IMG/VR virus record: IMGVR_UViG_3300032250_000072
Location: 1 to 37,086 of that record
Strand: one strand, 5' to 3'
From: a virus
Lineage: Duplodnaviria; Caudoviricetes
Length of the DNA: 37,086 bases
Below, one piece after another: positions 1,114 to 30,677 of this stretch. The notes beneath the pieces were generated by a model. The model was not told where the DNA came from, did not search any database, and was given only the letters and a program-made list of their open reading frames with translations. Within the stretch, counting starts at the first letter, position 1; each line of letters begins with the position of its first letter. Position numbers and translations under genes: made by a program.

Positions 1114-1186
1114 GGAGGTAGCTGTGAGCGTGGCTAGGCTTCTCCTCCCTGAGCCACTAGCCCGCTCGTAACCAGCAGCATGCTCC
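1114..1186 (+). ncRNA. Candidate structured RNA: long hairpin with CUCCUCCCU (anti-Shine-Dalgarno-like) loop
   Basis: Nested pairings GGAG 1114-1117/CTCC 1183-1186, GCTG/CAGC, GAGCG/CGCTC, GGCTAG 1132-1137/CTAGCC 1157-1162 and GCT/AGC enclose a pyrimidine loop at about 1142-1150. Confidence 0.4.
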
Positions 1187-1244
1187 GCCCACCCCTGGCA
1201 AAGTCAGTTGCCAAAGCGTTCAGCCGGGGGTGGGCTTTTTATTT
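1187..1244 (+). terminator. Rho-independent terminator/attenuator-like hairpin upstream of polA
   Basis: GCCCACCCCTGGC (1187-1199) pairs with GCCGGGGGTGGGC (1223-1235, one G-U), followed by TTTTTATTT. Confidence 0.65.
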
Positions 1245-1254
1245 GGAGTGCAAA

Positions 1255-3063
1255 ATTCTAACCATCGACTTTGAGACCGAAGCGATAGATGGCAACCCCA
1301 TCTACAACCCGCCGCGCCCGGTAGGCGTGTCAATCAAACCAGAGGGGAAGGAATCACGCTACTATGCGTGGGGCCATGGCAGTGACAACAACTGCACGTT
1401 TGAGGATGGGCGGGCTGCGCTGCTCACCGCACTGGCTAAGGACAACGAGGGCTACCTCGCCCACAACGCGCCGTTTGAAGCCGCCGTGCTCAAACGCTGG
1501 TTCAACTACGTGGAGCCCGACCCCCTGCTTGTGCACGACACGCAGTACCTGCTCTTCCTAGTGGATCCGTATGCCAATACGTTCAGCCTCAAGCCAAGTG
1601 CGGAGCGCATTTTGGGCCTGCCCCCTGACGAACGTGACGAGGTTCAACGCTGGGTGTTGAACCACATTCCCGGCTCTAAGAAGAGCGACTGGGGCGCTTA
1701 CATCTCCCGTGCACCGGGCAGTCTGGTGGGGCCCTACGCCATTGGCGACACTGACCGTACCCGCGCCCTGTACGACGCGCTGTACCCCCGCATTCTGCAA
1801 GCGGGCATGCTGGAGCCCTACCGCCGTGAGCAGAAGTTGATGCCCATTCTGTTTGCCAGCAGCGAGCGTGGCGTGCGCCTGGACACTGAGCGCCTTGCCG
1901 CAGACATTGCCACGTACACCGCCGCCAAGCAGAAGGCAGAGCAGTACATCCACAGCGTGCTGGGCGACTTTAACATTGACAGTGACGCTGAACTTGCTGC
2001 CGCCTTGGACCGTACAGGACAGGTCACCCAGTGGGTGCTAACCCCAACGGGCAAGCGTAGCACTAGCCGTAAGAACTTGGTCGGAAGGGTTAAGGACCCG
2101 TCGCTGCTTGCTTACCTTGCCTACCGGGGGGTGCTCGCTACGTGCCTGGGAACCTTTGCCGAGCCCTGGCTTGCACAGGCCGAGCGTGAAGGTGGCCGCG
2201 TGCACCCGCAGTGGAACCAAGTGCGTGGTGACCGTGGCGCGGACGGTGACATGTCCGGCACGCGGACGGGCCGCATGTCCTGCCGGGGGCCTAACTTGCA
2301 GAACCCACCCAACGAGTTTGAGGGGCTTGTGGTACCTGACGACCTGCCAGCCCCCATGATTATGCGGCGGTACCTCCTACCCGAGGAGGGACATGTGTGG
2401 CTCAAGCGTGACTTTAGTGCGCAGGAGATGCGCATCATGGCCCACTTTGCCGAGGGCAGGCTGTTTGACGCCTTCCGCCTTGACCCAACCACAGACCCTC
2501 ACGTTGCCGTGCAGAAGATGATTAAGGAGCTGCTGGGCATAGACATGCCCCGCAAGTACGTGAAGATCACAGGCTTTGGAATTATGTATGGACGCGGAGT
2601 GCCAAACCTATCTGTTGCCCTGGGAGTTGATCAAGACGAAGGCAAGCGCGTACGAGACGCTTACTATGCAGCTCTGCCGGAGATCCAACAACTCAGTTAC
2701 GATACGCGCAACCGGGGCAAGCGTGGACAGTTCATACGCACTTGGGGTGGGCGAGTGTATTACCGTGAGCCTGACCCCGCAAGGGATCTCAGTTACAAGC
2801 TGCTCAACTACCTCATCCAAGGCAGCGCGGCGGACCAAACCAAGCAAAGCATGATAGACTGGGAGCGTGACCGTGCCCCTGGCGATGTGCTGCTGGCCGC
2901 TGTACACGACGAAGTTAACATCTCCGCCCCTGCGGATGATGTGCCGGGTGCCATGCGGCGTCTGCGCCTAGCCATGAACGCCGACAGATTTGACGTTCCA
3001 TTCCGTAGCGAAGGCTACACCGGCCCTAACTGGGGCGACATTGAGGGGTACCAAGATGACTGA
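1255..3063 (+). CDS. polA: Family A DNA polymerase with 3'-5' exonuclease domain (start uncertain: ATT 1255, TTG 1243 or ATG 1180)
   Basis: ExoI TIDFET, ExoII HNAPFE, ExoIII YAIGD, TRTGRMS..PNLQN, motif A DFSAQEMR, motif B RKYVKITGFGIMYG (Phe at the 762-equivalent), NYLIQGSAAD, motif C VHDE. Confidence 0.97.
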   Translation: MLTIDFETEAIDGNPIYNPPRPVGVSIKPEGKESRYYAWGHGSDNNCTFEDGRAALLTALAKDNEGYLAHNAPFEAAVLKRWFNYVEPDPLLVHDTQYLLFLVDPYANTFSLKPSAERILGLPPDERDEVQRWVLNHIPGSKKSDWGAYISRAPGSLVGPYAIGDTDRTRALYDALYPRILQAGMLEPYRREQKLMPILFASSERGVRLDTERLAADIATYTAAKQKAEQYIHSVLGDFNIDSDAELAAALDRTGQVTQWVLTPTGKRSTSRKNLVGRVKDPSLLAYLAYRGVLATCLGTFAEPWLAQAEREGGRVHPQWNQVRGDRGADGDMSGTRTGRMSCRGPNLQNPPNEFEGLVVPDDLPAPMIMRRYLLPEEGHVWLKRDFSAQEMRIMAHFAEGRLFDAFRLDPTTDPHVAVQKMIKELLGIDMPRKYVKITGFGIMYGRGVPNLSVALGVDQDEGKRVRDAYYAALPEIQQLSYDTRNRGKRGQFIRTWGGRVYYREPDPARDLSYKLLNYLIQGSAADQTKQSMIDWERDRAPGDVLLAAVHDEVNISAPADDVPGAMRRLRLAMNADRFDVPFRSEGYTGPNWGDIEGYQDD

Positions 3064-5496: not shown

Positions 5497-6444
5497 ATGA
5501 ACATCTTTTATTTAGACCACAACCCGCGCACCGCTGCCGAAATGATGCACGACAAGCATGTGGTCAAAATGATTCTCGAAACGGCACAAATCCTCAGTTC
5601 AGTGTGTCATCGACACGACACTTGGATTGAGGAAATGTATCGCCCCACGCACAAAAACCATCCCAGCGTGCTGTGGGCAGGCGACAGTGCTGACAATTTT
5701 TGGTGGCTGTACGCGCACGGACTATGGCTGTGCAAAGAATTTGAGTATCGATACAACCACCATCACAAGAGCTCAGACGTTATCGAATTGATGCCGTACT
5801 TTGCTCCCAAACAGTTCCCACTCCCGTACTGGACACCGCCTCCGCAGGCTATGCCAGATGAATTCAAAATTGCCGGTGACAGCGTTGCTGCTTACCGAGC
5901 ATACTACCTGGGGCGGAAGGTAGAGCAAAGTGGTTGGACACGCCGCCCCGTGCCAACGTTCGTTTTAGAAGGAAAAGCCAACATGGCTAAGAAGAAGCAA
6001 GTGGAGTCCGCTGAGACTTCTACCTCCGCAGCGGCAGACGCACCGGCTGCACCCAAGAACGCACCGGGTGCCCCCATCGGCGCACGTGGCCCGAAGGGCG
6101 TGGCACTGGACGCCATTGTTAGCCTCAAGGTTGAGGGCAACCCCAAGCGTCCGGGCAGCAAGGCGCACGACGTATTTGCACAGTACGTGGACGGGATGAC
6201 GGTACAGCAGTTCCTTGACGCCGTGGGCCAAGCCGCTACTCCCAACCTCGTGTACGATGCAGCGCACGGCTTTATCGCCATTGAGGGGTACGACCCCAAG
6301 CTGGTGTTGAAGAAGGAGCGTGCCCCCAAGGCAGAAAAGGCTCCTAAGGAGCCCAAGGCCCCCCGTGGCAAGAAGGCCAAAGCCGCCGCTGAGGCAGCCC
6401 CTGCCTCCGTTGACGACGTAGCGGTTGAAGAGACCATCGACTGA
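5497..6444 (+). CDS. Pyrimidine dimer DNA glycosylase/endonuclease V-like protein fused in frame to a basic DNA-binding-like domain
   Basis: MNIFYLD, DKHVVKMILETAQILS, THKNHPS..W, PQAMPDE, AYRAYY motifs. The C-terminal half has an NPKRPGSKAH..F..Y.DGMTV domain and Lys/Ala/Pro repeats. Confidence 0.8.
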   Translation: MNIFYLDHNPRTAAEMMHDKHVVKMILETAQILSSVCHRHDTWIEEMYRPTHKNHPSVLWAGDSADNFWWLYAHGLWLCKEFEYRYNHHHKSSDVIELMPYFAPKQFPLPYWTPPPQAMPDEFKIAGDSVAAYRAYYLGRKVEQSGWTRRPVPTFVLEGKANMAKKKQVESAETSTSAAADAPAAPKNAPGAPIGARGPKGVALDAIVSLKVEGNPKRPGSKAHDVFAQYVDGMTVQQFLDAVGQAATPNLVYDAAHGFIAIEGYDPKLVLKKERAPKAEKAPKEPKAPRGKKAKAAAEAAPASVDDVAVEETID

Positions 6445-7232
6445 TGGCCATGGACGTCCTTATTCCAACATACGGGCGTCCACAACAAGACAGGCAGCAT
6501 ACCCTCCGTGCTCTTAGAGCCGAGGGCGTGCTGCCTGTTCTAGTTGTGCAGCACCGTGAGCACACTCAGTACGCGTGGTACGACGGGCCCGTGCACGTGT
6601 TGCCGCCGCACATCAAAACCGTAGCCCCTACACGGGACTACTTGATGCACAACGATATCTGGAAGGAGCGCTTTGTCGTCATGCTTGATGATGACCTGCA
6701 CTTCTTTGCCCGCCGCGTGGACGAGCCCACCAAGTTCCGCGCCCTGGTGCCTTCTGAACTGCGCCGCATGCTAGACCAAATTGAGGGTAGGTTAGACCTC
6801 TACCCCCACGTGGGCATCGCTCCACGGGAGGGTGGCAACCGTAACACGGAACAAGTGATGCTCAACACGCGCATCATGCGCGTGCTGGGATATGACAGGC
6901 ACTACCTCCGCGCCCACAACATTACGTTTACGCCCATGCCCGTAATGGAAGACTTCCACGTTAGTTTGCAGATTCTTAAATCTGGCAAGGATACGCTGGT
7001 GCTCAACAACTGGTGCAACAACCAAGCCGAGGGTAGCGACGCCCCCGGTGGCTGCTCCAGCTACCGCACCATGGCGCTCCAGGCCGAGGCAGCGCATCTG
7101 CTTGCTGCGCTGCACAAGCCCTACGTCAGTGTAGTGGAGAAAGAAACCAAGACCGCTTGGGGTGGTGGCACACGTACCGACGTAGTGGTGTACTGGAAGA
7201 AAGCGAGACAGCATGCTGCATCTAACGCATGA
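6444..7232 (+). CDS. GT-A fold glycosyltransferase, TAGT / base-J glucosyltransferase (GREB1)-like
   Basis: IPTYGR, TRDYL, VMLDDD (DxD), MEDFHVSLQIL..G and APGGCSSYRT motifs. Translationally coupled (TGATG) within the modification operon. Confidence 0.8.
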   Translation: MAMDVLIPTYGRPQQDRQHTLRALRAEGVLPVLVVQHREHTQYAWYDGPVHVLPPHIKTVAPTRDYLMHNDIWKERFVVMLDDDLHFFARRVDEPTKFRALVPSELRRMLDQIEGRLDLYPHVGIAPREGGNRNTEQVMLNTRIMRVLGYDRHYLRAHNITFTPMPVMEDFHVSLQILKSGKDTLVLNNWCNNQAEGSDAPGGCSSYRTMALQAEAAHLLAALHKPYVSVVEKETKTAWGGGTRTDVVVYWKKARQHAASNA

Positions 7233-8043
7233 GCTTGCCTACTGGATAAATGAGCGCCACCGCATCAAGCTCGCCAAGGAGGCAAAGGACACTCCACCCT
7301 GGAGCACGGACCCTGTGTTCAACACTGTGCGGTTCTGCAACGTACACCGGGAAGACGATAAGGTAACCCGTTGGATCCGCAAGTATTGGAACCGTGGTAC
7401 CGACCCCGCTTGGCGGTTTGTGGTGGGCCGCATGATCAACCTGCCTGAGAGCCTTGAGCAGTTGCTGTACTGTGACTTCCCCTGGCAGATGAAAGATGCG
7501 CTGAAGAAGCGCGTTGCCCAGGGACACAAGGTGTTCACCAGTGCGTACACCATCAGTACGTGTGGGCGCAGCATGGACAAGTTGGACTATGTGTTTGATC
7601 ATGTTGTGGGCGGCACCCCTGCAGAACTTAACTACAGTGGGCTGTCCTACGCTGCCGCTAGCTTAGAAGTTGTAGATGGGCTGGGCAGTTTTCTAGCAGG
7701 GCAAGTGGTTGCTGACATGAAGAATACTCACGGCCACCCCCTGCACGACGCACCTGATTGGTGGACATGGTCAGCGCCTGGGCCGGGTAGCCTGCGGGGG
7801 TTGAGCTGGTACTTCAACAAGGAGGCAATGCTGAATGAGATTCAGTCAATAACTCCTAGAGAATACAGGCACGCTCTGCGTGCTTGCAGGCATGAGGTTG
7901 ACCCACTTGTGCGGCCAGAGGTGCCACGCATTAGTGACCAAGACTTCCAAAACTGCTTGTGCGAGTTCAGCAAGTGGTGCAAGGTCAAGTACATGAACGG
8001 ACATGTGAGGAACAGATATGACCCCCTTCTTTCAGCGCGTTGA
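7213..8043 (+). CDS. aGPT-PPlase clade 1-like alpha-helical (HhH glycosylase-fold) DNA base hypermodification protein
   Basis: WINERHRI...PPWSTDPVF..RFCNVHREDD, helix-hairpin-helix GLGSFLAGQVVAD, PGPGSLRGL, QNCLCEFSK. Confidence 0.85.
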   Translation: MLHLTHELAYWINERHRIKLAKEAKDTPPWSTDPVFNTVRFCNVHREDDKVTRWIRKYWNRGTDPAWRFVVGRMINLPESLEQLLYCDFPWQMKDALKKRVAQGHKVFTSAYTISTCGRSMDKLDYVFDHVVGGTPAELNYSGLSYAAASLEVVDGLGSFLAGQVVADMKNTHGHPLHDAPDWWTWSAPGPGSLRGLSWYFNKEAMLNEIQSITPREYRHALRACRHEVDPLVRPEVPRISDQDFQNCLCEFSKWCKVKYMNGHVRNRYDPLLSAR

Positions 8044-8404
8044 TGACTTTAACCGCATGTACGGGTTGCCTGCGCCCGCTACACCGACGATGATTAGCCC
8101 CGTGCGCCTGCGGCAGTTCAAAGCCATGTTGCTTGAGGAAGTTGCCGAGGGCGACTCCGCTCTAGACGTTGCTGACCTTGCCGACTGGCTGGGGGACATG
8201 ATTGTGTACTGCACCAGTGAGGCCCGCCGCCACGGGCTACCGATTGAGGAAGTGTTGCACATCATAATGGACAGCAACTCATCCAAGCTGGGTGCTGATG
8301 GCACCCCCATAATCAACCAAGAGACAGGAAAGGTAGAGAAAGGACCAAGCTACTGGAAGCCTGAGCCCAAGATTCGTACTCTTTTGATGGAGAAGATGAA
8401 GTGA
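8018..8404 (+). CDS. MazG-like/all-alpha dNTP pyrophosphohydrolase (probable dUTPase/dTTPase)
   Basis: V..FN..YG, EEVAE, DWLGDMIVY, SNSSKLGADG.P, GKVEKGP.YW.PE. Confidence 0.85.
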   Translation: MTPFFQRVDDFNRMYGLPAPATPTMISPVRLRQFKAMLLEEVAEGDSALDVADLADWLGDMIVYCTSEARRHGLPIEEVLHIIMDSNSSKLGADGTPIINQETGKVEKGPSYWKPEPKIRTLLMEKMK

Positions 8405-9375
8405 TTCACAGCATAACTGAGACCAATGTGAACGGTGCGTTTGACACCGCATGGCACTACCTGAGCGTGGCTGGCGTGGAGGAGCCCAGCCGTAACGGAC
8501 CCGTACTGGTTGCCCCCACCCCGGTGATGACCACCTACCTGCGCCCCACGGAGCGGGTGTTATTCAGCCCCCGGCGCGACGCCAACCACGTGTTCCACTT
8601 GATGGAATCTATTTGGATGCTGGCTGGGCTTAGTGACGTAGAGTGGCTAAGCCAATTCAGCAGCAACATCAGCACCTACGCGGAGCCTGACGGCTACATC
8701 CACGGGGCGTATGGAGCACGCTGGCGCAACTGGTTTAATGACGGTGAGTACGACCAACTGCCCGTTATCATCAACACACTGCGCACCAACCCGCAGAGCA
8801 GACAAGCCGTGTTGCAGATGTGGGACCCCACTGCTGATCTTGAAGGTGAGTGGCGCGATAGGCCCTGCAACACCGCCATCTATTTTGACTGCCGTGGCGG
8901 CAAGCTGAACATGACGGTGACCTGCCGCAGCAACGACATTTTGTGGGGCTGCTACGGAGCCAACGCCGTGCACATGAGCGTGTTGCAGGAGGTGATTGCT
9001 CACGCCGTGGGGGTGCCCGTGGGAGTGTACAGGCAGTTCAGCAACAACTGGCACGCCTACACAGACAACGACAAGGTTAAGGACTTTCTAAAGTATCCGC
9101 CCGTAGGGGGCTTTGATTACTATGAGAGTGGCCGCACAGTGGCAATACCCCTCATCTCGGGCAAGGAAACGTGGCAACACTTCCTCGACGACTGTGAGCG
9201 GGTTGTTAACGGCTTCCGCGCCGTGGATACATTCTTCATGGATAAGGTGGCCGTACCCCTGCGGGACGCGTACCTAGCCCGTAAGGCTGGCGAAAGTTAC
9301 GACATCCGCAACGTGCCAGAGTGTGATTGGAAGTTGGGTTTTCAACAGTGGTGTGAAAGGAGAGAAATCAAGTGA
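8401..9375 (+). CDS. Thymidylate synthase-fold enzyme, probable dUMP hydroxymethylase
   Basis: SRNG, ESIWMLAG, GAYG.RWR, DQL, SRQAV..MWDP, catalytic PC, RSND.LWG.YGAN, NWHAY. Context is a base-modification operon. Confidence 0.85.
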   Translation: MIHSITETNVNGAFDTAWHYLSVAGVEEPSRNGPVLVAPTPVMTTYLRPTERVLFSPRRDANHVFHLMESIWMLAGLSDVEWLSQFSSNISTYAEPDGYIHGAYGARWRNWFNDGEYDQLPVIINTLRTNPQSRQAVLQMWDPTADLEGEWRDRPCNTAIYFDCRGGKLNMTVTCRSNDILWGCYGANAVHMSVLQEVIAHAVGVPVGVYRQFSNNWHAYTDNDKVKDFLKYPPVGGFDYYESGRTVAIPLISGKETWQHFLDDCERVVNGFRAVDTFFMDKVAVPLRDAYLARKAGESYDIRNVPECDWKLGFQQWCERREIK

Positions 9376-9839
9376 ACGCAAACGAGAAGCAAGTGGGCGG
9401 AGACCACTACCGCACGCATGGGCAGAAGCTCCAGCACTGGGACTTGGCCGTGATGTACCAGTGGGATCCTTTCCAGTATCAGGTAACCAAGTACCTGATG
9501 CGCTGGAAGTACAAGCACCGCACGCATGACAAGCGGCTTGAGGACTTGAAGAAGGCTGCGCACTTTCTGCAAAAGTACATCGAAGTTGCCACAGAGTATG
9601 ATGCGCCCCAAGCTGTAGAGAGCAAGGAACTGGGCACGGGGTTCTTACCCATCCGCCAGCAGGCTGCTGAGATCCTTAGCAATGAGGACTGGCAGTGCGA
9701 GGGCTACTACGGCGACCTCACCCAGCACTACCGCTGCAAGCACTGCGGCACTATGGTACGGGCTGCGACGCTAGAGGACGCCCACCAAGCCCACGGCGCG
9801 TGCCCTACTGGGCAGGGCTACGTTAACCAAGGCGACTAA
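9372..9839 (+). CDS. DUF3310 (T7 gp1.7-like, possible nucleotide kinase) with C-terminal Cys/His cluster
   Basis: QVGGDHY, KYLMRWKYK, EDLKKAAHFL, then C...CKHCG...H..H..C. Confidence 0.8.
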   Translation: MNANEKQVGGDHYRTHGQKLQHWDLAVMYQWDPFQYQVTKYLMRWKYKHRTHDKRLEDLKKAAHFLQKYIEVATEYDAPQAVESKELGTGFLPIRQQAAEILSNEDWQCEGYYGDLTQHYRCKHCGTMVRAATLEDAHQAHGACPTGQGYVNQGD

Positions 9840-9848
9840 CGTCGTACA

Positions 9849-9894
9849 CATAGGGGTTTACCCTGTGGCGGGTGAGGCATCTCACCCGCACAAT
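9849..9894 (+). promoter_or_regulatory. Palindromic site plus hairpin / candidate promoter upstream of the heptose operon
   Basis: CATAGGG-GTTTA-CCCTGTG imperfect palindrome (9849-9867), perfect 9-bp stem GCGGGTGAG-GCAT-CTCACCCGC (9868-9889), and a CACAAT -10-like hexamer (9889-9894). Confidence 0.45.
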
Positions 9895-9925
9895 ACAGGT
9901 ACCCCAACAACCAACCGGGTGTTAG

Positions 9926-10174
9926 ATGAAGACATATCAGGTGTACTACATGCGGCGGCACATCCCCCCTGAGGGGAGTGTGCACGTTGCAGCAGACCGT
10001 ATGGGCACGGTGCAGGGCACCTCCCGCCGCGATGCCCTGGCAGCCGCCAAGGGGCTATTCCCAAATCTCAAAAATCACGTTGCCGTGGAGATGATAGATG
10101 ATAGAACTCAACCCGTTCCGCAAGCCAAGTCCGTTGCGTATCGCAGCCGCCGCGCTGGAGGAGGCCGAGCGTAA
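9926..10174 (+). CDS. Small hypothetical protein
   Basis: First ATG ORF after the intergenic element, co-directional. 3' end overlaps the next ORF. Confidence 0.5.
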   Translation: MKTYQVYYMRRHIPPEGSVHVAADRMGTVQGTSRRDALAAAKGLFPNLKNHVAVEMIDDRTQPVPQAKSVAYRSRRAGGGRA

Positions 10175-10316
10175 CCGGCTGACAGCCGTTGCAGAGCGAG
10201 AGTACTATGCCGCAATGGAAGAAATGCTCGTTCGCCGCATTGCTCGCCTGCGCCGCGAGGTGGTGCAACTCACACAGGAGGCCGAAAGTGTCAAAAAAGA
10301 TTCTAGTGGTGGGTGA
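10098..10316 (+). CDS. Small coiled-coil hypothetical protein
   Basis: GGAG SD upstream and helical pattern (LEEAERNRL...REYY.A....RIARLR) seen in small phage proteins. Confidence 0.65.
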   Translation: MIELNPFRKPSPLRIAAAALEEAERNRLTAVAEREYYAAMEEMLVRRIARLRREVVQLTQEAESVKKDSSGG

Positions 10317-11199
10317 CAGCATGCTGGACGTGCGCATTGACTGCGAGGTCACGCGCATAAGCCCAGAGGCACCCATCCCCATTTACGACGTAGACCACGA
10401 GCAATGCTACGCCGGAGGCGCTGCCAACGTAGCCTTGAACATCAAGGCTATGGGCGGAGACGTTAAGCTACTCACCGCTGTGGGGGAGGATGTAGCGGGC
10501 ACATCCCTACTCGATATTCTCACTGGTAGCGACCTAGCCTACCAGTCCTGCCCGGTGGAGCGCACCACTACCAAGACGCGCCTGTTTGTCAACAATGTGG
10601 TGCGTGCCCGCATTGACGAGGACCACATACTCAGCGAGCCAGAGGCTGAGCGCATGAACGACGCGCTCAACGACCTGTTTTACGAGTACGGTGTGATCGT
10701 ATTTAGTGACTATGGCAAGGGCGCTCTGCGGTATGTAGACGCAATGCTTGACGCGTGTGCCTACGGGCGCATCACACTGGTAGACCCCAAGGGCTCCAAC
10801 TGGGGTAAGTATGAAAATGCCACCTACGTCAAGGCCAATGCGGCTGAGGTTGAGGCGGTGGGCATGTCGCAGTACAGAATACCAACGGAGTATGGGTTCG
10901 CCAAGTTGATCAAAACAGCGAGTGGCGCTGGGTCAGAAATTATTGGCTGCAACTACCGAGACGATGCGCAGCATGTTCCTCCCCTGCCCGTACAGTGTGT
11001 TGACCCAACTGGTGCCGGTGATAGCTATTTGGCTGCCTTGGCGGTGGGTTTGGCAGAGGGACTACCACTGTACGACGCCTGTTTGCGTGGTAGCGTGGCC
11101 GGTGCCCTTGCAACGCGCCACGTAGGCACGGCTGTGATCACTAGAGAGGAGATTGAAGAATGCTTGCCAAGATTATTGAACAACACAACTCAGCTGTAA
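10288..11199 (+). CDS. hldA: D-glycero-beta-D-manno-heptose-7-phosphate kinase (stand-alone HldE/RfaE domain I, PfkB family)
   Basis: ILVVGDSMLD, RISPEAPIPI, GGAANVA.NI, TTTKTR, SDYGKG, VDPKG, DPTGAGD. GTG start at 10288 with AGGAGG SD. Confidence 0.95.
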   Translation: MSKKILVVGDSMLDVRIDCEVTRISPEAPIPIYDVDHEQCYAGGAANVALNIKAMGGDVKLLTAVGEDVAGTSLLDILTGSDLAYQSCPVERTTTKTRLFVNNVVRARIDEDHILSEPEAERMNDALNDLFYEYGVIVFSDYGKGALRYVDAMLDACAYGRITLVDPKGSNWGKYENATYVKANAAEVEAVGMSQYRIPTEYGFAKLIKTASGAGSEIIGCNYRDDAQHVPPLPVQCVDPTGAGDSYLAALAVGLAEGLPLYDACLRGSVAGALATRHVGTAVITREEIEECLPRLLNNTTQL

Positions 11200-11714
11200 G
11201 TGCTCTACTGGAGCAGGAAAGCACCATCAACGCGATGGCGCAGACACTAGCGGATTGTATTGCTCAGGGTGGTACCATCTACCTGTGTGGCAACGGTGGC
11301 AGCGCGGCGGATTGTCAACACATTGCGGCAGAATTGGTGGGCCGCTTTAAGCGGGAGCGGGGCGGCTACGCCGCCGTGGCGCTGACTACAGACACATCCA
11401 TACTCACCGCTGTGGGCAACGACTACGGATTTGAGTCAGTGTTCTCCCGTCAGGTAGATGCGCTGGCCTGTGATGGGGATGTGCTGCTGTGCTTCAGCAC
11501 CAGTGGCAACAGCGCCAACGTAGTCAAGGCGGCAGAGGTTGCTGGGGCGCTGGGTGTGACTGTGCTGGCATTCACGGGCCGCAACGAGGGGGTGCTGTGG
11601 CGGTTTGCTGACCACACCTTGTGCGTCAACAGTACAGACACCGCACGCATACAGGAGTGTCACATTCTAGTGGGACACATTCTTTGCCAGATGGTTGAGG
11701 AGGCCTTGCAGTGA
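11160..11714 (+). CDS. gmhA: Sedoheptulose-7-phosphate (phosphoheptose) isomerase
   Basis: CGNGGSAADCQHIAAEL, TAVGNDYGF..VFSRQ, STSGNS, TARIQECH...GH. Confidence 0.97.
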   Translation: MLAKIIEQHNSAVSALLEQESTINAMAQTLADCIAQGGTIYLCGNGGSAADCQHIAAELVGRFKRERGGYAAVALTTDTSILTAVGNDYGFESVFSRQVDALACDGDVLLCFSTSGNSANVVKAAEVAGALGVTVLAFTGRNEGVLWRFADHTLCVNSTDTARIQECHILVGHILCQMVEEALQ

Positions 11715-12142
11715 ACGCCCGTATTTGGACCAATGGATGCTTTGACCTGCTGCACGCGGGGCACGTCATGTTCCTTGAACGTGCGGCCAAACTGGGCACG
11801 CTCACCGTGTTCATGAACAGTGACGCAAGCGTCCGCGCCCTGAAGGGCAACCACCGCCCCATAGTGCCCGAAGCCTACCGCCGCCGCGTGCTGGAAGCTC
11901 TCCGCTGCGTGGCGAACGTACACATCTTCAGCGGCCCTAACCCCGTTGAGTACTGGAGTACACTGGGCACTGTACCTGACATCTACGTAAAGGACAGCGA
12001 GTGTGACGTTGCTCACAGCGCCGAGGGGCAGTGGCTGCTCAGCAAGGGCGTGGCGGTGACTGTGTTGCCTCGCGTGCCAGACATTAGTACCACCATACTT
12101 GAGCGTCGCATCCGTGGCGGAGAATCGAGCAGCGTTTCTTGA
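11711..12142 (+). CDS. hldC: Heptose-1-phosphate nucleotidyltransferase (stand-alone HldE/RfaE domain II)
   Basis: TNGCFDLLHAGH (HIGH motif), NSDASVRALKG..RPI, PDIYVK, RVPDISTT. Confidence 0.93.
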   Translation: MNARIWTNGCFDLLHAGHVMFLERAAKLGTLTVFMNSDASVRALKGNHRPIVPEAYRRRVLEALRCVANVHIFSGPNPVEYWSTLGTVPDIYVKDSECDVAHSAEGQWLLSKGVAVTVLPRVPDISTTILERRIRGGESSSVS

Positions 12143-12614
12143 CAGGGACGGAACCCTAATACGGGACGTTCCCTACTTGAATGACCCCACGCAAGTACAG
12201 ATACTGCCGGGGGTGGTGCCTGCTCTACGCAATCTAATTGATTGTGGATACCTGCTAATCGTAGTCACTAATCAAAGCGGCATTGGTCGGTGGCGGATAA
12301 CTAAGGCTCAGTACACTGCGGTGCACCGCCGCATGCTGGATTTACTCGGGCAGCACGGGGTGTACATCACAGGTACGTACTACTGTCCCCACACGCCGGA
12401 TGCTGGCTGCGCCTGCCGCAAGCCTGGAACCGCCATGTTTGAGCGCGCAGCCCGTGACTTTGACATTGACTTGGCCGAGAGCCTAATGTTTGGAGATAAA
12501 GAAAGTGACATGGTGCCCTGCGTTGGCAAATGTATCCGTGTACCAAAAGACGGCTCCTGGGCCACGTGGTACCGCCCCCGCTACCCTAGCCCTACCCCAC
12601 CCGCAAAAACGTAG
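12114..12614 (+). CDS. gmhB: D-glycero-D-manno-heptose-1,7-bisphosphate phosphatase (HAD IIIA)
   Basis: FLDRDGTL, VTNQSGIGR, CPH....C.CRKP, GDKESD. Start could be GTG 12114 or TTG 12099. Confidence 0.95.
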   Translation: MAENRAAFLDRDGTLIRDVPYLNDPTQVQILPGVVPALRNLIDCGYLLIVVTNQSGIGRWRITKAQYTAVHRRMLDLLGQHGVYITGTYYCPHTPDAGCACRKPGTAMFERAARDFDIDLAESLMFGDKESDMVPCVGKCIRVPKDGSWATWYRPRYPSPTPPAKT

Positions 12615-12668
12615 CCACGGGGCGTCTGATAAGTCGCATGGGCATGTGCTAGCGGTGTGGGTGGCCGC

Positions 12669-12905
12669 ATGAGCCTAGTGACGTCAGTTTGCGTGTATTT
12701 TGCCACTCACCCAGGTAGCGAACTTACCGCACCAGACATTGCACTGCGCTGGAGTGTAGACCCCAACAACGTCCGCAAGACGCTCAAGTACGCTGAGGTT
12801 AAGGGTTGGATTACTTGTGCGAAGAAGCCCAACCCCACCCGCGCCACCAAGCAGATATTGTTCTACACCGCAGGCCCACGCCTGCTAAAGGAGATTGGAA
12901 GATGA
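12669..12905 (+). CDS. Small winged-helix/HTH-like DNA-binding protein
   Basis: ELTAPDIALRWSVDPNNVRKTL....KGWI pattern. Coupled to the next gene. Confidence 0.55.
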   Translation: MSLVTSVCVYFATHPGSELTAPDIALRWSVDPNNVRKTLKYAEVKGWITCAKKPNPTRATKQILFYTAGPRLLKEIGR

Positions 12906-14569: not shown

Positions 14570-17500
14570 TCACTGCTCTTCGTCAGCATTGTACGTAACA
14601 GCACCGCCCGCCGCAACCGCCCCACCCATGCTGAATAGTTGAGTGCGCTTGGCCTTCTTGGGGTCAATGGGTACTTCCCACCAGCCGTGGCCCTTGTCGT
14701 CCTTAACCTGCTTGCCACCGAGCGACTTGAGGTAGTTGGCAACCTCTTTCTTGTACCGATCGTAGATGCCTTGGTGCTCGGGGTACTCGAACTTGTCGGA
14801 CACACGGGTCAGCTTGTTGATGGTATCCTCAGTCAAGTTAGCGGTGCCCATGTTGCTCCAAATTGGTTCGCCAATCTGGTTACCCGTAGCGTCAATGGGG
14901 TAGCGCTCGGCTTCCCAAATACCAGTCTCGTCTACGCGGACGTTGCCGGTATAGGTCCAGTCATTGGCGGTGCCTGCTCTACTGCCCACAAGGCGTCTGT
15001 CCGCTAGCTCAGGGGCCATAACCTCTCCGGGGGTTACTTCTATCCTGCGGGGCCACCCCTCCACAGCGGCAACGGTGTCAGCGTCTGCAAAACGGACCAC
15101 TGGGGGTACAGGCTTGTACTGCTCAACCTCAAGGGCCCGCTGCGCAAAGTCCTCAGCTTCTTTTCTGAACGGGGCGGTAGCGGCAGCTATCATTCTATCG
15201 GTGCGGTTGAATCCCTGCTCGACGTAAGAGTTTTCTATCTGCTTGGCATACTTGAGTGCAGACTTTGCTCGGTTGCGCAGGCTCTCGTACTCAGGGTTAA
15301 GCTGCGGCGTGGCGGCACGGCTCAGCTCCTCGCGAATCAGGCGACGTTCCCAGTTCTTGAACATGGGGCGCTGCGCGGTGGCTGCGGCACCTTCCGCCAA
15401 CTTAGCGCTGTGCTCGCTGCTAAGTAGGCTCAGTGTGTTGCTAATGTCCCTAAGTTCTTCATGTAGTGCAATACTGAGAGCTAAGTGTTGCTCATTTGGT
15501 GGGCGGGGTAACCCCCCAGCGCCGAGTGGTGTGTCGGGCATAGAGGCTATATAGCGGAGTAAGTCACCCTCATTTCCAAACTGCACGCCAATGCCAAGAG
15601 CGTTGCTAATTTCAGTAGATAGCCTGCTACTAATTCCATCTTCCAGTAGCATAACAAAATCTGGATTAGCTTGCAGTAGCTGCTCTTGCTTACTAATGAT
15701 ATCTTTTGCAGCAGTGCTCGCCCACGTAATGTCTTCGCCTTGGGCGGTGTAGGGATATAGCTGTCGTATAGGGATTACAACTGCCTCTTGAGCTATCACA
15801 TTATCAAAGGCGCTCTGCAAGCGTGTGCGCTCTTCTTCGGACAGTTCTTTGCCAGCTTTCTGCACAAGATCGGACTGGATCTCCACCACATGGGGGATGC
15901 CTACCTCATCCTCAAACGCCCTGGTATGTCCGAAGTAATTCGGGTCACGGAAGTGATTGTTCGTTGCCGTGGGGGTGGGGCTGCGGTGGATAGTGGTACG
16001 TGCGTTCTGCGCGTTGGGCTCACCCATGCCGAACGTCCACTGAGATGGCGTGAGGTTGCGGTCAATATTTTCAAGTCCGTAGTCGGCAAACCTGTCAACG
16101 TCTTTAGGTGCCAGCCCGTATGGCTCAGTCTCACGGCGGACGCCCGCTACCAAGTCCTCAGCGGAGATGCTGTCCCCCTCCTGCCCAGACAGCACGCGCT
16201 CTAGCACATCCTTCTCAGCCTTGGTGACCTCGGGGCGGCGCATTTGGTCGCGGATTTCGGACATGGGGATCACCGTGCGCTTACCCGGCAGGTTTTCCAG
16301 CGTGCGGAGCGTGTAGGGCTCGTCCTCCAGCACCTCGCGCAGTGAGCGCTCAGGGCCCATGCTGGCAGCCGGGGCGGCAACCCGTTTGGTTCCGTAGCGT
16401 CCACCAGTCAACTCACCAATCGTCTTCAATGCCTCGGGCGGGCGGTCAAGCGCCATCATGCCTTCGCGCATCGGGAATATGTCCCGCCGCTCCTCGGGCG
16501 TGAGGTCCATGCGGGTTTGCGTCAGGCGGGCGCGGGCCTCACCTTGGTTACGCATGTACTGCTCGTAACGACCAGCTTCGGTTGGCTCGGCAATCCTGGC
16601 CTTTTGGTACGCTTCTCTAAGCCGAGCCTGTGCTGCGTCCACACGTTGCTTAAGTGGGTCTAGCGGCACATTTCTAATTATCCTAAGCGTGGCGTCCCGC
16701 AGCATTCCGTCTTGCGCAAATGTGCTTTCATTTTCGGGATTGTATTTCCCGGCAGCTCCAAAATTTTCAGCTATTCCGTAATAATTAGCCCTATCAACTA
16801 CTTCATCAAGAGCTTGCTCGGGGGTCATGCCCGGAGTTTTATCCATTAGCCGACGAGCTTGAAGAGCTGTGGCATCCGCATCAAAGTTTATCTTATCACC
16901 CTCGAGCCGAAGGTTCCAGCTATCGCCCGCTTCTTTAATCGTCTCAGGCGCAATGCCGTAGTCCTTGCCCGCAAAATAGTCAATGCCGTGCTGCGTTTCG
17001 TGCCCCATAATGGCACGTCCGTAGGTCTCACCTGGGCGGAGATATTTGGAACTAAGACGGATAGCTCCCATACCAGGGGCGCTAGGGTCAAAGTGACCTG
17101 CGGTACGCTTGCCGCCCAGGTCAGCCTGCGTGACAAAGTCAACCTGCATCTCCGCCAGCTCGGGGATGCGCTGGAATAGTTCTGGGTGCTCAATTACATC
17201 GGCGTACTTCAAGCCTTTGATGGGCGCAGTCAAGCTATTGTTGGCATTCTCCAGCGCGGCCTCTAGTTGCTCGTTTGTACGTTGCTGCGCCAGCGTCAGC
17301 GCCTTGGGGGATGGGTCCTGCCCCGTCTGTACGCGGATAGTGCGTGCTGCATTGCCCATGCTGCCGCCACGGTCCAAAATATCGCGGACCTGCATGGCAA
17401 CTTCAATATCACTAATGCGCTGCACAATCGGCTCCCGTGCGGCCTTGACAGCCTCGAGAGCCTTAAACTTCATCTTGTCGTCGCTAAGCTCTACAGCCCA

Positions 17501-18229
17501 GGAGCCGTCAAGGTCACGCACCAAGCCGGTCTGCACCAGTACGTCGTCAGGAGAGGTGCCCTTGGCCTCAAGTTCCTGCGCGATGCTGATGTTGGCTTTT
17601 TCCTGCGGTGTGAAAAACGCCTCTGGCAAAAACGTGCCACGCTGCCCACGCGCCATGGGGGACGTGACCGCATTTGCAGCCATTGACTCCCCCAGGGCAA
17701 CCCCCGCACTCTTCAACGCCTTGGCTACGCCAGGGGCAACCTCACGGGCAGCAAACGCCCCAGGCACTGTCTGCGCCACGGCACCAAGGTACTCCAGCGC
17801 GGCGGTGCCGTAGTCTCCCCGCTCAAAAGCACCGGCAGCACGCTCGGTGCTGCGGTAGCCTTCTTCCATAAAGTAGGGCAGTGCGGGCAACAGGGGTATA
17901 TCAAGCAACCCAGCGCCGAGTGGCAGGTTGCTTTGTGGACCACCCAGCACGGTCTGTACCATGCGGCGGGCACCAGCACGCTCTACGCCCAGCCCTTCTA
18001 GTGCTGACTGTGCACGGGCAACGTCACGCTCCCGCGTGGTGGGGCGGTACTCACGCATCTCGGCCGGTGGGGCTGGACGCGTGGGCTGCGCACGCACCAC
18101 ACTCGGCGGAGTGGGTGCCACGGGCTGCATGTAACTTGGACGCCACGGGGCGTCCAGCGGAGAGTCAGGGCGGCGAGGTACCTCGCCTGTTTCATAGCCT
18201 GGATCTAGTTGCTCGTCCATCACGGCCAT
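14570..18229 (-). CDS. Large internal virion/ejection (polyvalent) protein with LPD23-like region and zincin HExxH motif
   Basis: 1219 aa. TG..RDLDGSW..E.SD and HPELF..IPEL (LPD23-like), HETQH, GEARAR..Q.R, HF..PNY.GH.R...EIQSD. Last gene of the ejection block. Confidence 0.75.
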   Translation of the reverse strand: MAVMDEQLDPGYETGEVPRRPDSPLDAPWRPSYMQPVAPTPPSVVRAQPTRPAPPAEMREYRPTTRERDVARAQSALEGLGVERAGARRMVQTVLGGPQSNLPLGAGLLDIPLLPALPYFMEEGYRSTERAAGAFERGDYGTAALEYLGAVAQTVPGAFAAREVAPGVAKALKSAGVALGESMAANAVTSPMARGQRGTFLPEAFFTPQEKANISIAQELEAKGTSPDDVLVQTGLVRDLDGSWAVELSDDKMKFKALEAVKAAREPIVQRISDIEVAMQVRDILDRGGSMGNAARTIRVQTGQDPSPKALTLAQQRTNEQLEAALENANNSLTAPIKGLKYADVIEHPELFQRIPELAEMQVDFVTQADLGGKRTAGHFDPSAPGMGAIRLSSKYLRPGETYGRAIMGHETQHGIDYFAGKDYGIAPETIKEAGDSWNLRLEGDKINFDADATALQARRLMDKTPGMTPEQALDEVVDRANYYGIAENFGAAGKYNPENESTFAQDGMLRDATLRIIRNVPLDPLKQRVDAAQARLREAYQKARIAEPTEAGRYEQYMRNQGEARARLTQTRMDLTPEERRDIFPMREGMMALDRPPEALKTIGELTGGRYGTKRVAAPAASMGPERSLREVLEDEPYTLRTLENLPGKRTVIPMSEIRDQMRRPEVTKAEKDVLERVLSGQEGDSISAEDLVAGVRRETEPYGLAPKDVDRFADYGLENIDRNLTPSQWTFGMGEPNAQNARTTIHRSPTPTATNNHFRDPNYFGHTRAFEDEVGIPHVVEIQSDLVQKAGKELSEEERTRLQSAFDNVIAQEAVVIPIRQLYPYTAQGEDITWASTAAKDIISKQEQLLQANPDFVMLLEDGISSRLSTEISNALGIGVQFGNEGDLLRYIASMPDTPLGAGGLPRPPNEQHLALSIALHEELRDISNTLSLLSSEHSAKLAEGAAATAQRPMFKNWERRLIREELSRAATPQLNPEYESLRNRAKSALKYAKQIENSYVEQGFNRTDRMIAAATAPFRKEAEDFAQRALEVEQYKPVPPVVRFADADTVAAVEGWPRRIEVTPGEVMAPELADRRLVGSRAGTANDWTYTGNVRVDETGIWEAERYPIDATGNQIGEPIWSNMGTANLTEDTINKLTRVSDKFEYPEHQGIYDRYKKEVANYLKSLGGKQVKDDKGHGWWEVPIDPKKAKRTQLFSMGGAVAAGGAVTYNADEEQ

Positions 18230-28478: not shown

Positions 28479-29546
28479 TTACGCCGCTTCTCGTTTTGCC
28501 GTTACGCAGTCACGCAGCACATTGTACACGGCACCCCAGGCTTGCCCAATAGTGATGTCCTTTTGGCACTGTGCAGTGCCGCTTTCTTCATCGCGAGTGC
28601 AACCTGTCCAGTTGTAGTGCAGCAGATGGCATGCCGGGGCAGCGTTGGCACCCCGGCCTGCGCACGTAGTATTTTCGCTCCATAGGGGAGTGGTGTTGAC
28701 CCAGTCACGTGTCAGGTTCTCGTGCGTGCTGTGGGACAAGAACACCACCTTTGCCATTGGCTCGCAAGCCATGGCATTCATAACTCCGGTCTCAGGCCCA
28801 ATAACTAGATCAACCTCTTGACAGAAGCTGAGCGTCTCCCGGATAGACCAGACACCAGACTTTTTGAGAATGCGTTGCTCATTCTCCCAGCCAGCCTCCA
28901 GCAACACGCAGTCATGTCCACCAGTCAGCACTATGCGTGCAGTGGGGAACTCTACAAGAATGCTAGCCAGCACGTTGTCTAAGCCAGCCCAGACTTTGTG
29001 TACGCTGCTCCCCGCCAATGACCACACCACCACCGGCCCGTCACCCAACTTGGTACGCTCTCGCTTGGCCCACTTAACTTCATCAGGAGTGGGGTAGAAG
29101 TGAGAGTCCAGAACATACGGAATTTCTGCAATCGCGTGCTGAAACTCTACGTAGTTTCTATTCATCAAGCTGTGGCGAACTTGGGGTGGATACAGTGCCA
29201 CCGTGCGGCCCTGCATACCGAGCAGCGTGCCCTCCACTGATTCGCTGAGGTTGACCCACTTGTCAAACTTCTTTTTATGCCAGTTCCAGAAGTCCATCAG
29301 ATTGCCGTTGGGCACTTGGTCCTTATCAAACAGTACCAAGTTGTCAATATTGGGGTCGTGCAGTACGACGTCAGCTCCCGGCAAACTGGAGAATACCGTG
29401 ACGTGATATCCTTCTTTCTTAAGACCAGCCCACACGCTGCTGGCTTGCATCAGGTCACCAAATGCGCCGTAGCGCACTACACAAGCAGTCTTTGCAGGCT
29501 TGTCGTTCTTGTAGCTGAATCTGTGCGTGTATTTGTTGCTCACCAC
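28479..29546 (-). CDS. GT9-family (GT-B) heptosyltransferase-like glycosyltransferase with C-terminal Cys cluster
   Basis: VVRYGAFGDLMQ, HDPNID, GSSVHKVW, SIRETL.....DLVIGPETGVMNA (D/E-S/T-G..H/N motif of WaaC/WaaF-like enzymes), C-terminal C..CH..H..C..C. Confidence 0.88.
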   Translation of the reverse strand: MVSNKYTHRFSYKNDKPAKTACVVRYGAFGDLMQASSVWAGLKKEGYHVTVFSSLPGADVVLHDPNIDNLVLFDKDQVPNGNLMDFWNWHKKKFDKWVNLSESVEGTLLGMQGRTVALYPPQVRHSLMNRNYVEFQHAIAEIPYVLDSHFYPTPDEVKWAKRERTKLGDGPVVVWSLAGSSVHKVWAGLDNVLASILVEFPTARIVLTGGHDCVLLEAGWENEQRILKKSGVWSIRETLSFCQEVDLVIGPETGVMNAMACEPMAKVVFLSHSTHENLTRDWVNTTPLWSENTTCAGRGANAAPACHLLHYNWTGCTRDEESGTAQCQKDITIGQAWGAVYNVLRDCVTAKREAA

Positions 29547-29990: not shown

Positions 29991-30159
29991 GCTTCTTCTC
30001 CTTTGCTGCATTCATGTTGTCGACAAGATTGGGATACGGTCTACCCGCTGCTTTGGCCGTGCGCTTGGCCTTAGCTTTCTGCTCGGGGGTCAAAGGCTTG
30101 GATGGACCAAGGTCTTTGCGGCGGGGCACTTCCCACACTGGCTTTTCAGACTTTTTCAT
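29983..30159 (-). CDS. 58-aa basic phage protein (not in the supplied ORF track)
   Basis: Manual translation MKKSEKPVWEVPRRKDLGPSKPLTPEQKAKAKRTAKAAGRPYPNLVDNMNAAKEKKRA*. Overlaps both neighbours in coupled fashion and fills the gap. Confidence 0.75.
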   Translation of the reverse strand: MKKSEKPVWEVPRRKDLGPSKPLTPEQKAKAKRTAKAAGRPYPNLVDNMNAAKEKKRA

Positions 30160-30677
30160 AGCTTCTTGAATATGAAAAGTAGACTATACTCATCGTCTTC
30201 ATTGCGCTTTTGGAAGTCTACCAAGTCCCACGACCCAACAAGGCGCATGGCGTCAACTACACGGTCATAGTTCACGTTCCACTTGTGGTCAGGATTGGCA
30301 CCGGGTTCTCCAACTTTGGGATACTCGTCCTCATCGGGCAGGTACAAAATCAGGTACCCGCCCTGCTTGACCACGCGGAACCACTCTTTGAGTGCTGAGG
30401 CGTAGTCTGTAATGTGCTCCAATGTGTGGCTGCTGTATGCAAAATCCATGCTTTGGCTTGCAAACATATCCAACTTGGTGGCGTCCTCACACATAATGTC
30501 TGGCCGCACGCTAAAACCGAACTGCGCGTGGTGCATGTTGTCCACACTGATGGCGTGGGGCAGCACCTTAAAGTCGCCTGCACCAATGTCTAGGCCACGG
30601 CCCCGCAAGTAGGGAGCAACCTCCCAAACTATCTTTCTAGACTCGGCCTTGTACGGCGCACTTGCAGACCAAACCAT
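30156..30677 (-). CDS. Class I SAM-dependent methyltransferase (Methyltransf_11-like)
   Basis: GLDIGAG motif I, DAT, DFAYSSHTLEH, EWFRVVKQGGYLILYLP. Confidence 0.9.
   Translation of the reverse strand: MVWSASAPYKAESRKIVWEVAPYLRGRGLDIGAGDFKVLPHAISVDNMHHAQFGFSVRPDIMCEDATKLDMFASQSMDFAYSSHTLEHITDYASALKEWFRVVKQGGYLILYLPDEDEYPKVGEPGANPDHKWNVNYDRVVDAMRLVGSWDLVDFQKRNEDDEYSLLFIFKKL

What the first reader, a model, noticed from the sequence alone, without database searches (positions are those of the whole stretch)
6444..12614. Predicted heptosyl-hydroxymethyluracil (base J analogue) DNA hypermodification pathway
Seen: a translationally coupled run of TAGT-like GT, aGPT-PPlase1-like protein, MazG-like pyrophosphatase, TS homologue and DUF3310, followed within about 450 bp by the heptose operon. 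Known: hmU phages use a dUMP hydroxymethylase, a dUTP/dTTP pyrophosphatase and a kinase, and kinetoplastid JGT glucosylates hmU. Inference: dUTP -> dUMP -> hmdUMP -> hmdUTP, incorporation by the phage PolA, then post-replicative glycosylation. The only sugar-nucleotide pathway in the window makes heptose, so heptose is the candidate donor. This would protect against restriction and CRISPR nucleases.
Basis: partly seen in the sequence, partly recalled or inferred. Interest (0 to 1): 0.88.

Follow-up and report, generated by a model that had tools for sequence, protein, structure and literature searches.

The report
Phage sugar-hmU cassette plus heptose supply
An uncultured freshwater phage carries genes that likely swap thymine for a sugar-tagged hydroxymethyluracil in its DNA, but the heptose-making genes next door more likely feed a second, heptose-type sugar transferase among its capsid genes, which would likely sugar-coat the virus particle; no chemistry has been measured.

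Summary
All genes are real. The thymidylate-synthase homologue has the active-site residues of phage M6's dUMP hydroxymethylase. The glycosyltransferase is a GT-A TAGT. No M6-type hmU kinase or amino-acid transferase was found. A base-J-like glycosyl-hmU is therefore likely.

The heptose link is weak. Of 50 TAGT-bearing virus records, gmhA occurs in 5 of 8 with GT9 and 0 of 42 without. Ten other records, two complete, have gmhA plus GT9 but no hmU synthase; in one phage HldE overlaps the GT9 stop. Beside the operon the DNA transferase changes among three types.

Best reading: two systems, glycosyl-hmU with an unknown sugar, and NDP-heptose for a probable virion glycan (0.6). Heptosyl-hmU stays possible (about 0.2). 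The scan reported this before on other DNA (e1-6315599); that note pointed me to GT9, and I retested it here.

The parts
6444..7232 (+). TAGT-family GT-A glycosyltransferase; predicted DNA hmU glycosyltransferase, donor unknown
   Evidence: PF20691 E 1e-20; D82-D83-D84 invariant in 107 homologues; model pLDDT 95, GT-A matches TarP/RmlT
7213..8043 (+). PF18723 (aGPT-PPlase1 / HMUDK_hel) helical protein, homologue of M6 gp55; function unknown
   Evidence: 28% to M6 gp55, E 2e-29; present in 72 of 75 TAGT loci
8018..8404 (+). MazG-like nucleotide pyrophosphohydrolase, optional
   Evidence: deleted in close relatives
8401..9375 (+). predicted dUMP hydroxymethylase
   Evidence: 45% full length to M6 gp58; D153, C156, N157, D179, N188 invariant in 61 of 61 aligned sequences including M6 gp58
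9372..9839 (+). DUF3310-like protein, homologue of M6 gp61
   Evidence: M6 gp61 E 8e-9; homologues hit PF11753; PHROG label 'nucleotide kinase' is unverified
10288..11199 (+). HldE kinase domain (heptose-7-phosphate kinase); ORF opens at 10189, probable start 10288
   Evidence: TIGR02198 E 2.7e-58; start and upstream AGGAGG
11160..11714 (+). GmhA sedoheptulose-7-phosphate isomerase
   Evidence: TIGR00441 E 1e-57
11711..12142 (+). HldE nucleotidyltransferase domain, Arg five residues before STT (STTR5-like)
   Evidence: TIGR02199 E 1e-31; motif read; motif described in PMC11461863 passages
12099..12614 (+). GmhB heptose-bisphosphate phosphatase
   Evidence: NF006506 E 5.9e-41
28479..29546 (-). 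GT9 heptosyltransferase-fold protein in the head operon, between capsid and connector genes; likely user of the NDP-heptose
   Evidence: 52 of 90 aligned homologues hit PF01075; Foldseek E 8.7e-13 GT9, 1.5e-12 WaaF; Z 24.3 and 23.3, WaaC/TibC about 20
30156..30677 (-). SAM methyltransferase, fused to the GT9 in most relatives
   Evidence: PF08241 E 1.3e-12; 80 of 90 GT9 homologues carry the domain
1180..3063 (+). Family A DNA polymerase that would incorporate hmdUTP
   Evidence: PF00476 E 5.9e-49

Best explanation
The finding likely joins two separate systems: a kinase-less cassette that likely puts a sugar of unknown identity on hydroxymethyluracil in the phage DNA, and an NDP-heptose pathway that likely supplies the GT9 transferase and methyltransferase in the capsid operon, which would likely build a methylated heptose glycan on a virion protein. 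[quoted passage not shown]
For: hmU side: TS in 75 of 75 TAGT loci with at least 5.5 kb downstream, gmhA in only 6; TS residues; no ADDT in the window or a 91%-complete relative while M6 rings. Heptose-GT9 link: gmhA in 5 of 8 GT9-positive and 0 of 42 GT9-negative TAGT records, including 0 of 20 that are at least 90% complete. Ten records have gmhA plus GT9 and no hmU synthase: G073, G078, G086, G106, G118, G119, G125, G127, G128, G137. G118 and G127 are 100% complete and also lack TAGT, with positive controls ringing. In G128 a fused HldE overlaps the stop of the methyltransferase-GT9 gene (same layout in G127). Their GmhAs are scattered on the tree. GT9 lies in 36 of 36 capsid loci that reach the connector, and its nearest folds are ADP-heptose transferases. 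Heptose-flanked TAGTs form two clades with no private shared residue; two relatives put a T4-beta-GT-like gene in that slot.
Against: In all 9 distinct hmU-cluster phages seen with the operon, it sits directly behind the cluster on the early strand, not beside GT9. L324 has it there with a GmhA outside the main clade. The 5 gmhA-positive TAGT records are one lineage (two nearly identical), so Fisher p 2.6e-5 overstates independence. Most GT9 phages lack gmhA (2 of 39 GT9-selected records; 0 of 7 near-complete), so host heptose usually suffices, and it could equally supply TAGT. 42 of 50 gmhA-selected records lack this GT9 (mostly fragments). The only phage heptose transferase shown to act on DNA is T4-beta-GT-like, like the slot gene of L249/L324. 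The GT9 acceptor could be host LPS.
Confidence: 0.6

Rival explanations
1. Heptosyl-hmU, alone or sharing the donor with GT9: TAGT transfers heptose from ADP-, CDP- or UDP-heptose to hmU in DNA.
For: Operon directly behind the hmU cluster in 9 of 9 hmU phages that have it. The STTR5-like Arg would allow UDP/CDP-heptose, a donor type GT-A enzymes could use. Heptosyl-hmC is known, and that paper finds sugar type does not follow cluster subclass.
Against: gmhA never seen in 42 TAGT records lacking GT9. The sister TAGT (L009, 61%) keeps only gmhB. No convergent residues. The same Arg occurs in GT9-only phages L259 and L301. The TAGT model's listed matches include no heptosyltransferase.
Confidence: 0.2
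2. The heptose and GT9 modify the host surface (LPS core) for superinfection exclusion or serotype change, not the virion; the DNA part is as in the best explanation.
For: Top folds are the LPS-type GT9 and WaaF (Z 24.3, 23.3), ahead of the protein transferase TibC (20.2, tied with WaaC). GT9 also lies in capsid-gene loci within bacterial genomes.
Against: Fixed position between capsid and connector genes in 36 of 36 loci implies late expression, a poor time for exclusion (inference).
Confidence: 0.12
3. DNA carries plain hmU, or the TS makes dTMP, and TAGT does not act on DNA.
For: No biochemistry; no dCMP deaminase or HD hydrolase homologue of M6 found; MazG optional; the palindrome test failed its M6 control.
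Against: TS residues match M6 gp58; TAGT is tied to the TS in 75 of 75 loci; related GT-A enzymes glycosylate DNA.
Confidence: 0.08

Closest known systems
Thymidine hypermodification clusters of Pseudomonas phage M6/YuA, PaMx11 and Salmonella phage ViI (PMC5889632, PMC8989533)
   Same: dUMP hydroxymethylase (45% to M6 gp58), gp55-like PF18723 protein, gp61-like DUF3310, PolA.
   Different: No gp54 P-loop hmU kinase, no gp51 amino-acid:DNA transferase, no HD hydrolase or dCMP deaminase homologue found; a TAGT instead. The window is 66% complete, the relative G003 91%.
Kinetoplastid base J (JBP + JGT) and phage TAGT/GT-A DNA glycosyltransferases (10.1101/2023.12.21.572611; T6 TAGT in PMC13390438)
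   Same: GT-A fold with DXD motif, PF20691; predicted acceptor hmU as for JGT.
   Different: hmU would be made before replication by a TS homologue, not by a dioxygenase. Tested phage GT-As act on hmC or add a second sugar. Donor unknown here.
Contig 53 heptosyl-hmC pathway (10.1101/2023.12.21.572611, section 7)
   Same: Phage-encoded phosphatase, kinase and nucleotidyltransferase making a heptose donor near a DNA transferase.
   Different: There the transferase is T4-beta-GT-like GT-B, the base is C and the kinase is an APH-like fusion. Here the DNA transferase is GT-A, the base is U, the genes are GmhA/HldE/GmhB, and a GT9 is present.
GT9 ADP-heptose transferases WaaF (1psw), WaaC (2h1h), TibC (4rap)
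   Same: GT-B fold, Z 20-24 over 260-284 residues.
   Different: 9-16% identity; viral, in a head operon, paired or fused with a methyltransferase; acceptor unknown.
Mycobacteriophage virion glycosylation (Freeman 2023; seen only as cited in PMC12619734)
   Same: Phage-encoded transferases decorating virion proteins.
   Different: Different head clade; a heptose-type GT9 plus methyltransferase and a phage-made donor are proposed here.

Membership tests
dUMP hydroxymethylase (M6 gp58 type) | Catalytic Cys (E. coli ThyA C146) | tested here: met
   C156, 61 of 61
dUMP hydroxymethylase (M6 gp58 type) | Asn at ThyA 177 (uracil), not Asp (cytosine) | tested here: met
   N188 aligns with the Asp of the CMP hydroxymethylase 5b6d; same as M6
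dUMP hydroxymethylase (M6 gp58 type) | Position 143 not Leu; position 169 Asp (not the Asn of 5-hydroxy-dCMP synthases) | tested here: met
   D153 and D179, as in M6 gp58; criteria from PMC13326640 section 28
dUMP hydroxymethylase (M6 gp58 type) | Makes hmdUMP | not testable with these tools
   needs assay
5-HMUDK/ADDT hypermodification pathway (M6, ViI, PhiW-14) | Amino-acid:DNA transferase (PF18724) | tested here: not met
   absent from window and G003, rings in M6; records incomplete
5-HMUDK/ADDT hypermodification pathway (M6, ViI, PhiW-14) | P-loop 5-hmdU DNA kinase | tested here: inconclusive
   no tblastn hit with M6 gp54; PF18748 search had no positive control; records incomplete
TAGT / JGT-like GT-A DNA glycosyltransferases | PF20691 above cut-off, GT-A fold, DXD | tested here: met
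   75 bits vs cut-off 27.5
TAGT / JGT-like GT-A DNA glycosyltransferases | Transfers sugar to hydroxymethylpyrimidine in DNA | not testable with these tools
   context only
Contig-53-type heptosyl-pyrimidine system | T4-beta-GT-like GT-B DNA transferase | tested here: not met
   window transferase is GT-A; the GT-B gene of L249 has no match in the window
Contig-53-type heptosyl-pyrimidine system | Donor genes required for the modified base | not testable with these tools
   co-occurrence points to GT9
ADP-heptose pathway (GmhA, HldE, GmhB) | Isomerase, kinase, phosphatase and nucleotidyltransferase all present | tested here: met
   best NCBIfam hits, all under curated cut-offs
GT9 heptosyltransferases | GT9 fold and PF01075 relationship | tested here: met
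   PF01075 in 52 of 90 homologues, not in the window protein itself
GT9 heptosyltransferases | Uses NDP-heptose | not testable with these tools
   context only
Protein heptosyltransferases (TibC/Aah) | Iron finger, thumb and dodecamer (features recalled, except 'iron-containing dodecameric' in the PDB titles) | not tested
   TibC Z 20.2 tied with WaaC; four C-terminal Cys in the window protein, three invariant, not compared further

The most novel reading that the evidence does not exclude
One phage-made NDP-heptose pool feeds two transferases: TAGT writes heptosyl-hydroxymethyluracil, a heptose base J, into the genome, and the GT9-methyltransferase pair coats the virion with methylated heptose.
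Probability: 0.17. Interest if true: 0.82.

Novelty: new variant of a known kind. Interest (0 to 1): 0.5.

Why it matters
I found no report of a measured glycosyl-hmU in a phage or of a heptosylated phage particle (searches; open-access library only). The TAGT cassette is widespread (359 viral matches) and the GT9 is a core head gene of a large clade (585 matches), so either product would be common and untested. The gene families and TS-plus-GT clusters are already described computationally, and heptose on phage cytosine is known. Practical point: adjacency of a sugar pathway to a DNA transferase does not identify the donor.

Tried and rejected
Palindrome avoidance as a sign of modified T: T-free 6-mer palindromes are at 0.15 of expectation in the window against 0.67-0.92 for T-containing ones, and 32 hmU loci differ from 18 loci without a detected TS (p 0.011). 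But the M6 fragment goes the other way, TS-less G118 shows 0.20, and the loci are related, so I give it no weight. Sequence searches of the GT9 against Pfam, NCBIfam, PHROGs, PDB and cultured phages found nothing; fold and homologues identified it. TET (PF12851) and PF18748 searches rang nowhere and had no positive control. One search lacked a control and was replaced. Promoter and terminator scans were near chance. No RNA holder listed. Ser/Thr content names no acceptor. The careful TAGT tree did not finish; the quick tree is used. Cultured phages gave no full heptose operon of this type. Iyer 2013 (PMC3763556) was not held. No complex prediction was run.
Full report
Setting. The window is a whole virus record, 66% complete by CheckV. 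A + strand replication arm (PolA, nuclease, helicase) ends at about 13 kb and meets a - strand lysis and virion arm. Listed holders are mostly freshwater metagenomes; four were laid and hold close relatives.

Observation. One contig from another study spans 6000-12874. The MazG-like gene is dispensable: near-identical phages delete it, and a single-query tblastn finds it in 9 of 75 loci, which may undercount.

The hmU side. The TS homologue is 45% identical over its length to M6 gp58. At E. coli ThyA positions 143, 146, 147, 169 and 177 it has D, C, N, D, N, invariant in 61 of 61 sequences including M6 and PhiJL001. By the criteria in PMC13326640 section 28 this means a uracil substrate, no D169N hydroxylase signature, and a non-Leu 143. 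ORF 7213-8043 is the homologue of M6 gp55, which was not needed for the glycinyl product in PMC8989533 section 16; its role is open. M6 gp54 kinase, gp51 transferase, gp59 and gp65 found no homologue in the window or in fetched parts of G003 and four other relatives. PF18724 rang in M6 only. TAGT is a confident GT-A model. Of 160 TAGT loci (duplicates kept), 75 had at least 5.5 kb downstream and were counted: TS 75, PF18723 gene 72, DUF3310 70, gmhA 6. Direct glycosylation of hmU is the simplest chemistry. It is inferred, not shown.

The missed gene. ORF 28479-29546 lies between the capsid gene and the head connector. Its homologues are labelled ADP-heptose:LPS heptosyltransferase by JGI, usually fused to a methyltransferase; 52 of 90 hit PF01075. 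Its model (pLDDT 93) matches GT9 3tov, WaaF, WaaC and TibC at Z 24-20; after three plant NDH subunits at about 19, unrelated GT-B enzymes follow at 15 or less. It is present in 36 of 36 capsid-selected loci that reach the connector, out of 80.

Who uses the heptose. I searched 50 of the 80 viral TAGT records whole, mostly the longer ones. GT9 was in 8 and gmhA in 5, all 5 GT9-positive; 0 of 42 GT9-negative records had gmhA, including 0 of 20 at least 90% complete. These five are one lineage. The independent evidence comes from other phages. Among 39 GT9-selected records, G073 and G086 have gmhA and no TS match. Among gmhA-selected records (50 tested, chosen from the 80 shown of 297, plus 5), full GT9 matches were G078, G106, G118, G119, G125, G127, G128, G137 and G138; only G138 has the hmU synthase. 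G118 and G127 are complete and lack TAGT and the L249-type GT-B gene, with controls ringing. A Pfam scan of 82 heuristic G127/G128 ORFs and 45 G118 ORFs (first 40 kb) showed no base-modifying enzyme. In G127/G128 gmhA lies before the capsid gene and fused HldE overlaps the end of the methyltransferase-GT9 gene. Gene orders differ and the GmhAs of these phages are scattered on a quick tree, which suggests repeated pairing of heptose genes with GT9.

The DNA transferase beside the operon is not constant. Heptose-flanked TAGTs form two clades, forced apart by well-supported branches (56 rows; loci too short to call were dropped). They share no private residue; control pairings gave 0-5. L249 and L324 carry a T4-beta-GT-like gene in that slot.

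Against my reading. In all nine distinct hmU phages with the operon it follows the hmU cluster directly, and L324 has it there with a more distant GmhA. G077 has operon and hmU cluster with no GT9 match, but is only 30% complete; L086 and L109 are short contigs not tested. Most GT9 phages have no gmhA and most gmhA contigs have no such GT9, so the operon is optional cargo and the host can supply heptose to either enzyme. Heptosyl-hmC from a phage GT-B is published. The STTR5-like Arg allows UDP- or CDP-heptose in principle but is also in GT9-only phages. The position may simply be the end of the early transcript, where metabolic cargo lands (inference).

Literature seen. 10.1101/2023.12.21.572611: passages and sections 7 and 9; supplements not seen, so GT53 could not be compared. 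PMC13326640: passages and section 28. PMC8989533: passages and section 16. Passages only: PMC5889632, PMC11461863 (a commentary on Tang 2024), PMC13229309, PMC12619734, PMC12801897, PMC13390438, PMC8670742, PMC11946847. Iyer 2013 and Freeman 2023: seen only as cited by these. No measured phage glycosyl-hmU or heptosylated virion turned up in searches; subscription papers are not covered.

Verdict. hmU synthesis about 0.9; glycosyl-hmU about 0.8; heptose on DNA about 0.2; heptose mainly for the GT9 pair about 0.7, most likely on a virion protein. A new variant of known kinds, already noted several times by this scan. Interest 0.5.

Noticed in passing
window 18240-19409 (-): 389-aa protein in the virion arm with no family hit, conserved at about 27-34% in many GT9 phages; looks by eye like an ATP-grasp ligase (recalled resemblance, untested).
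   Followed up: no
window 5497-6444 (+): Pyrimidine-dimer-glycosylase-like domain (PF03013) fused to a Lys/Ala-rich DNA-binding-like tail, overlapping the TAGT start; the N-terminal domain is missing in L249 and L324.
   Followed up: partly
window 14570-18229 (-): 1219-aa large polyvalent protein with an LPD23 domain next to the lysis genes.
   Followed up: no
L009 13864-15010: Sister phage keeps only gmhB at the operon site, behind an unrelated ORF; it has GT9.
   Followed up: partly
L249 5877-6803 and L324 4278-5189: T4-beta-GT-like GT-B gene replaces TAGT in the same hmU cassette beside the heptose operon; the best candidates for a true heptosyl-hmU.
   Followed up: partly
G052 44316-45305: Complete GT9 phage with the hmU synthase but neither TAGT, the L249-type GT-B, nor gmhA; its partner enzyme was not examined.
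   Followed up: no
L008 (Ralstonia phage RSL1) 11259-19653: Cultured phage with three TAGT-like genes, nucleotidyltransferases, a sulfotransferase-like gene and an hmU-type TS: a testable glycosyl-hmU candidate. PhiJL001 (L005) and LuckyBarnes (L007) also pair TAGT with a TS.
   Followed up: no
window, whole: CCGCGG, CGCGCG and ACCGGT are absent (expected 10-13 each), pointing to host restriction pressure.
   Followed up: partly
L417, L418, L433, L434: The capsid-methyltransferase-GT9 block lies in long contigs of Paraburkholderia, Aromatoleum and Pseudothauera genomes, probably prophages that could be induced.
   Followed up: partly
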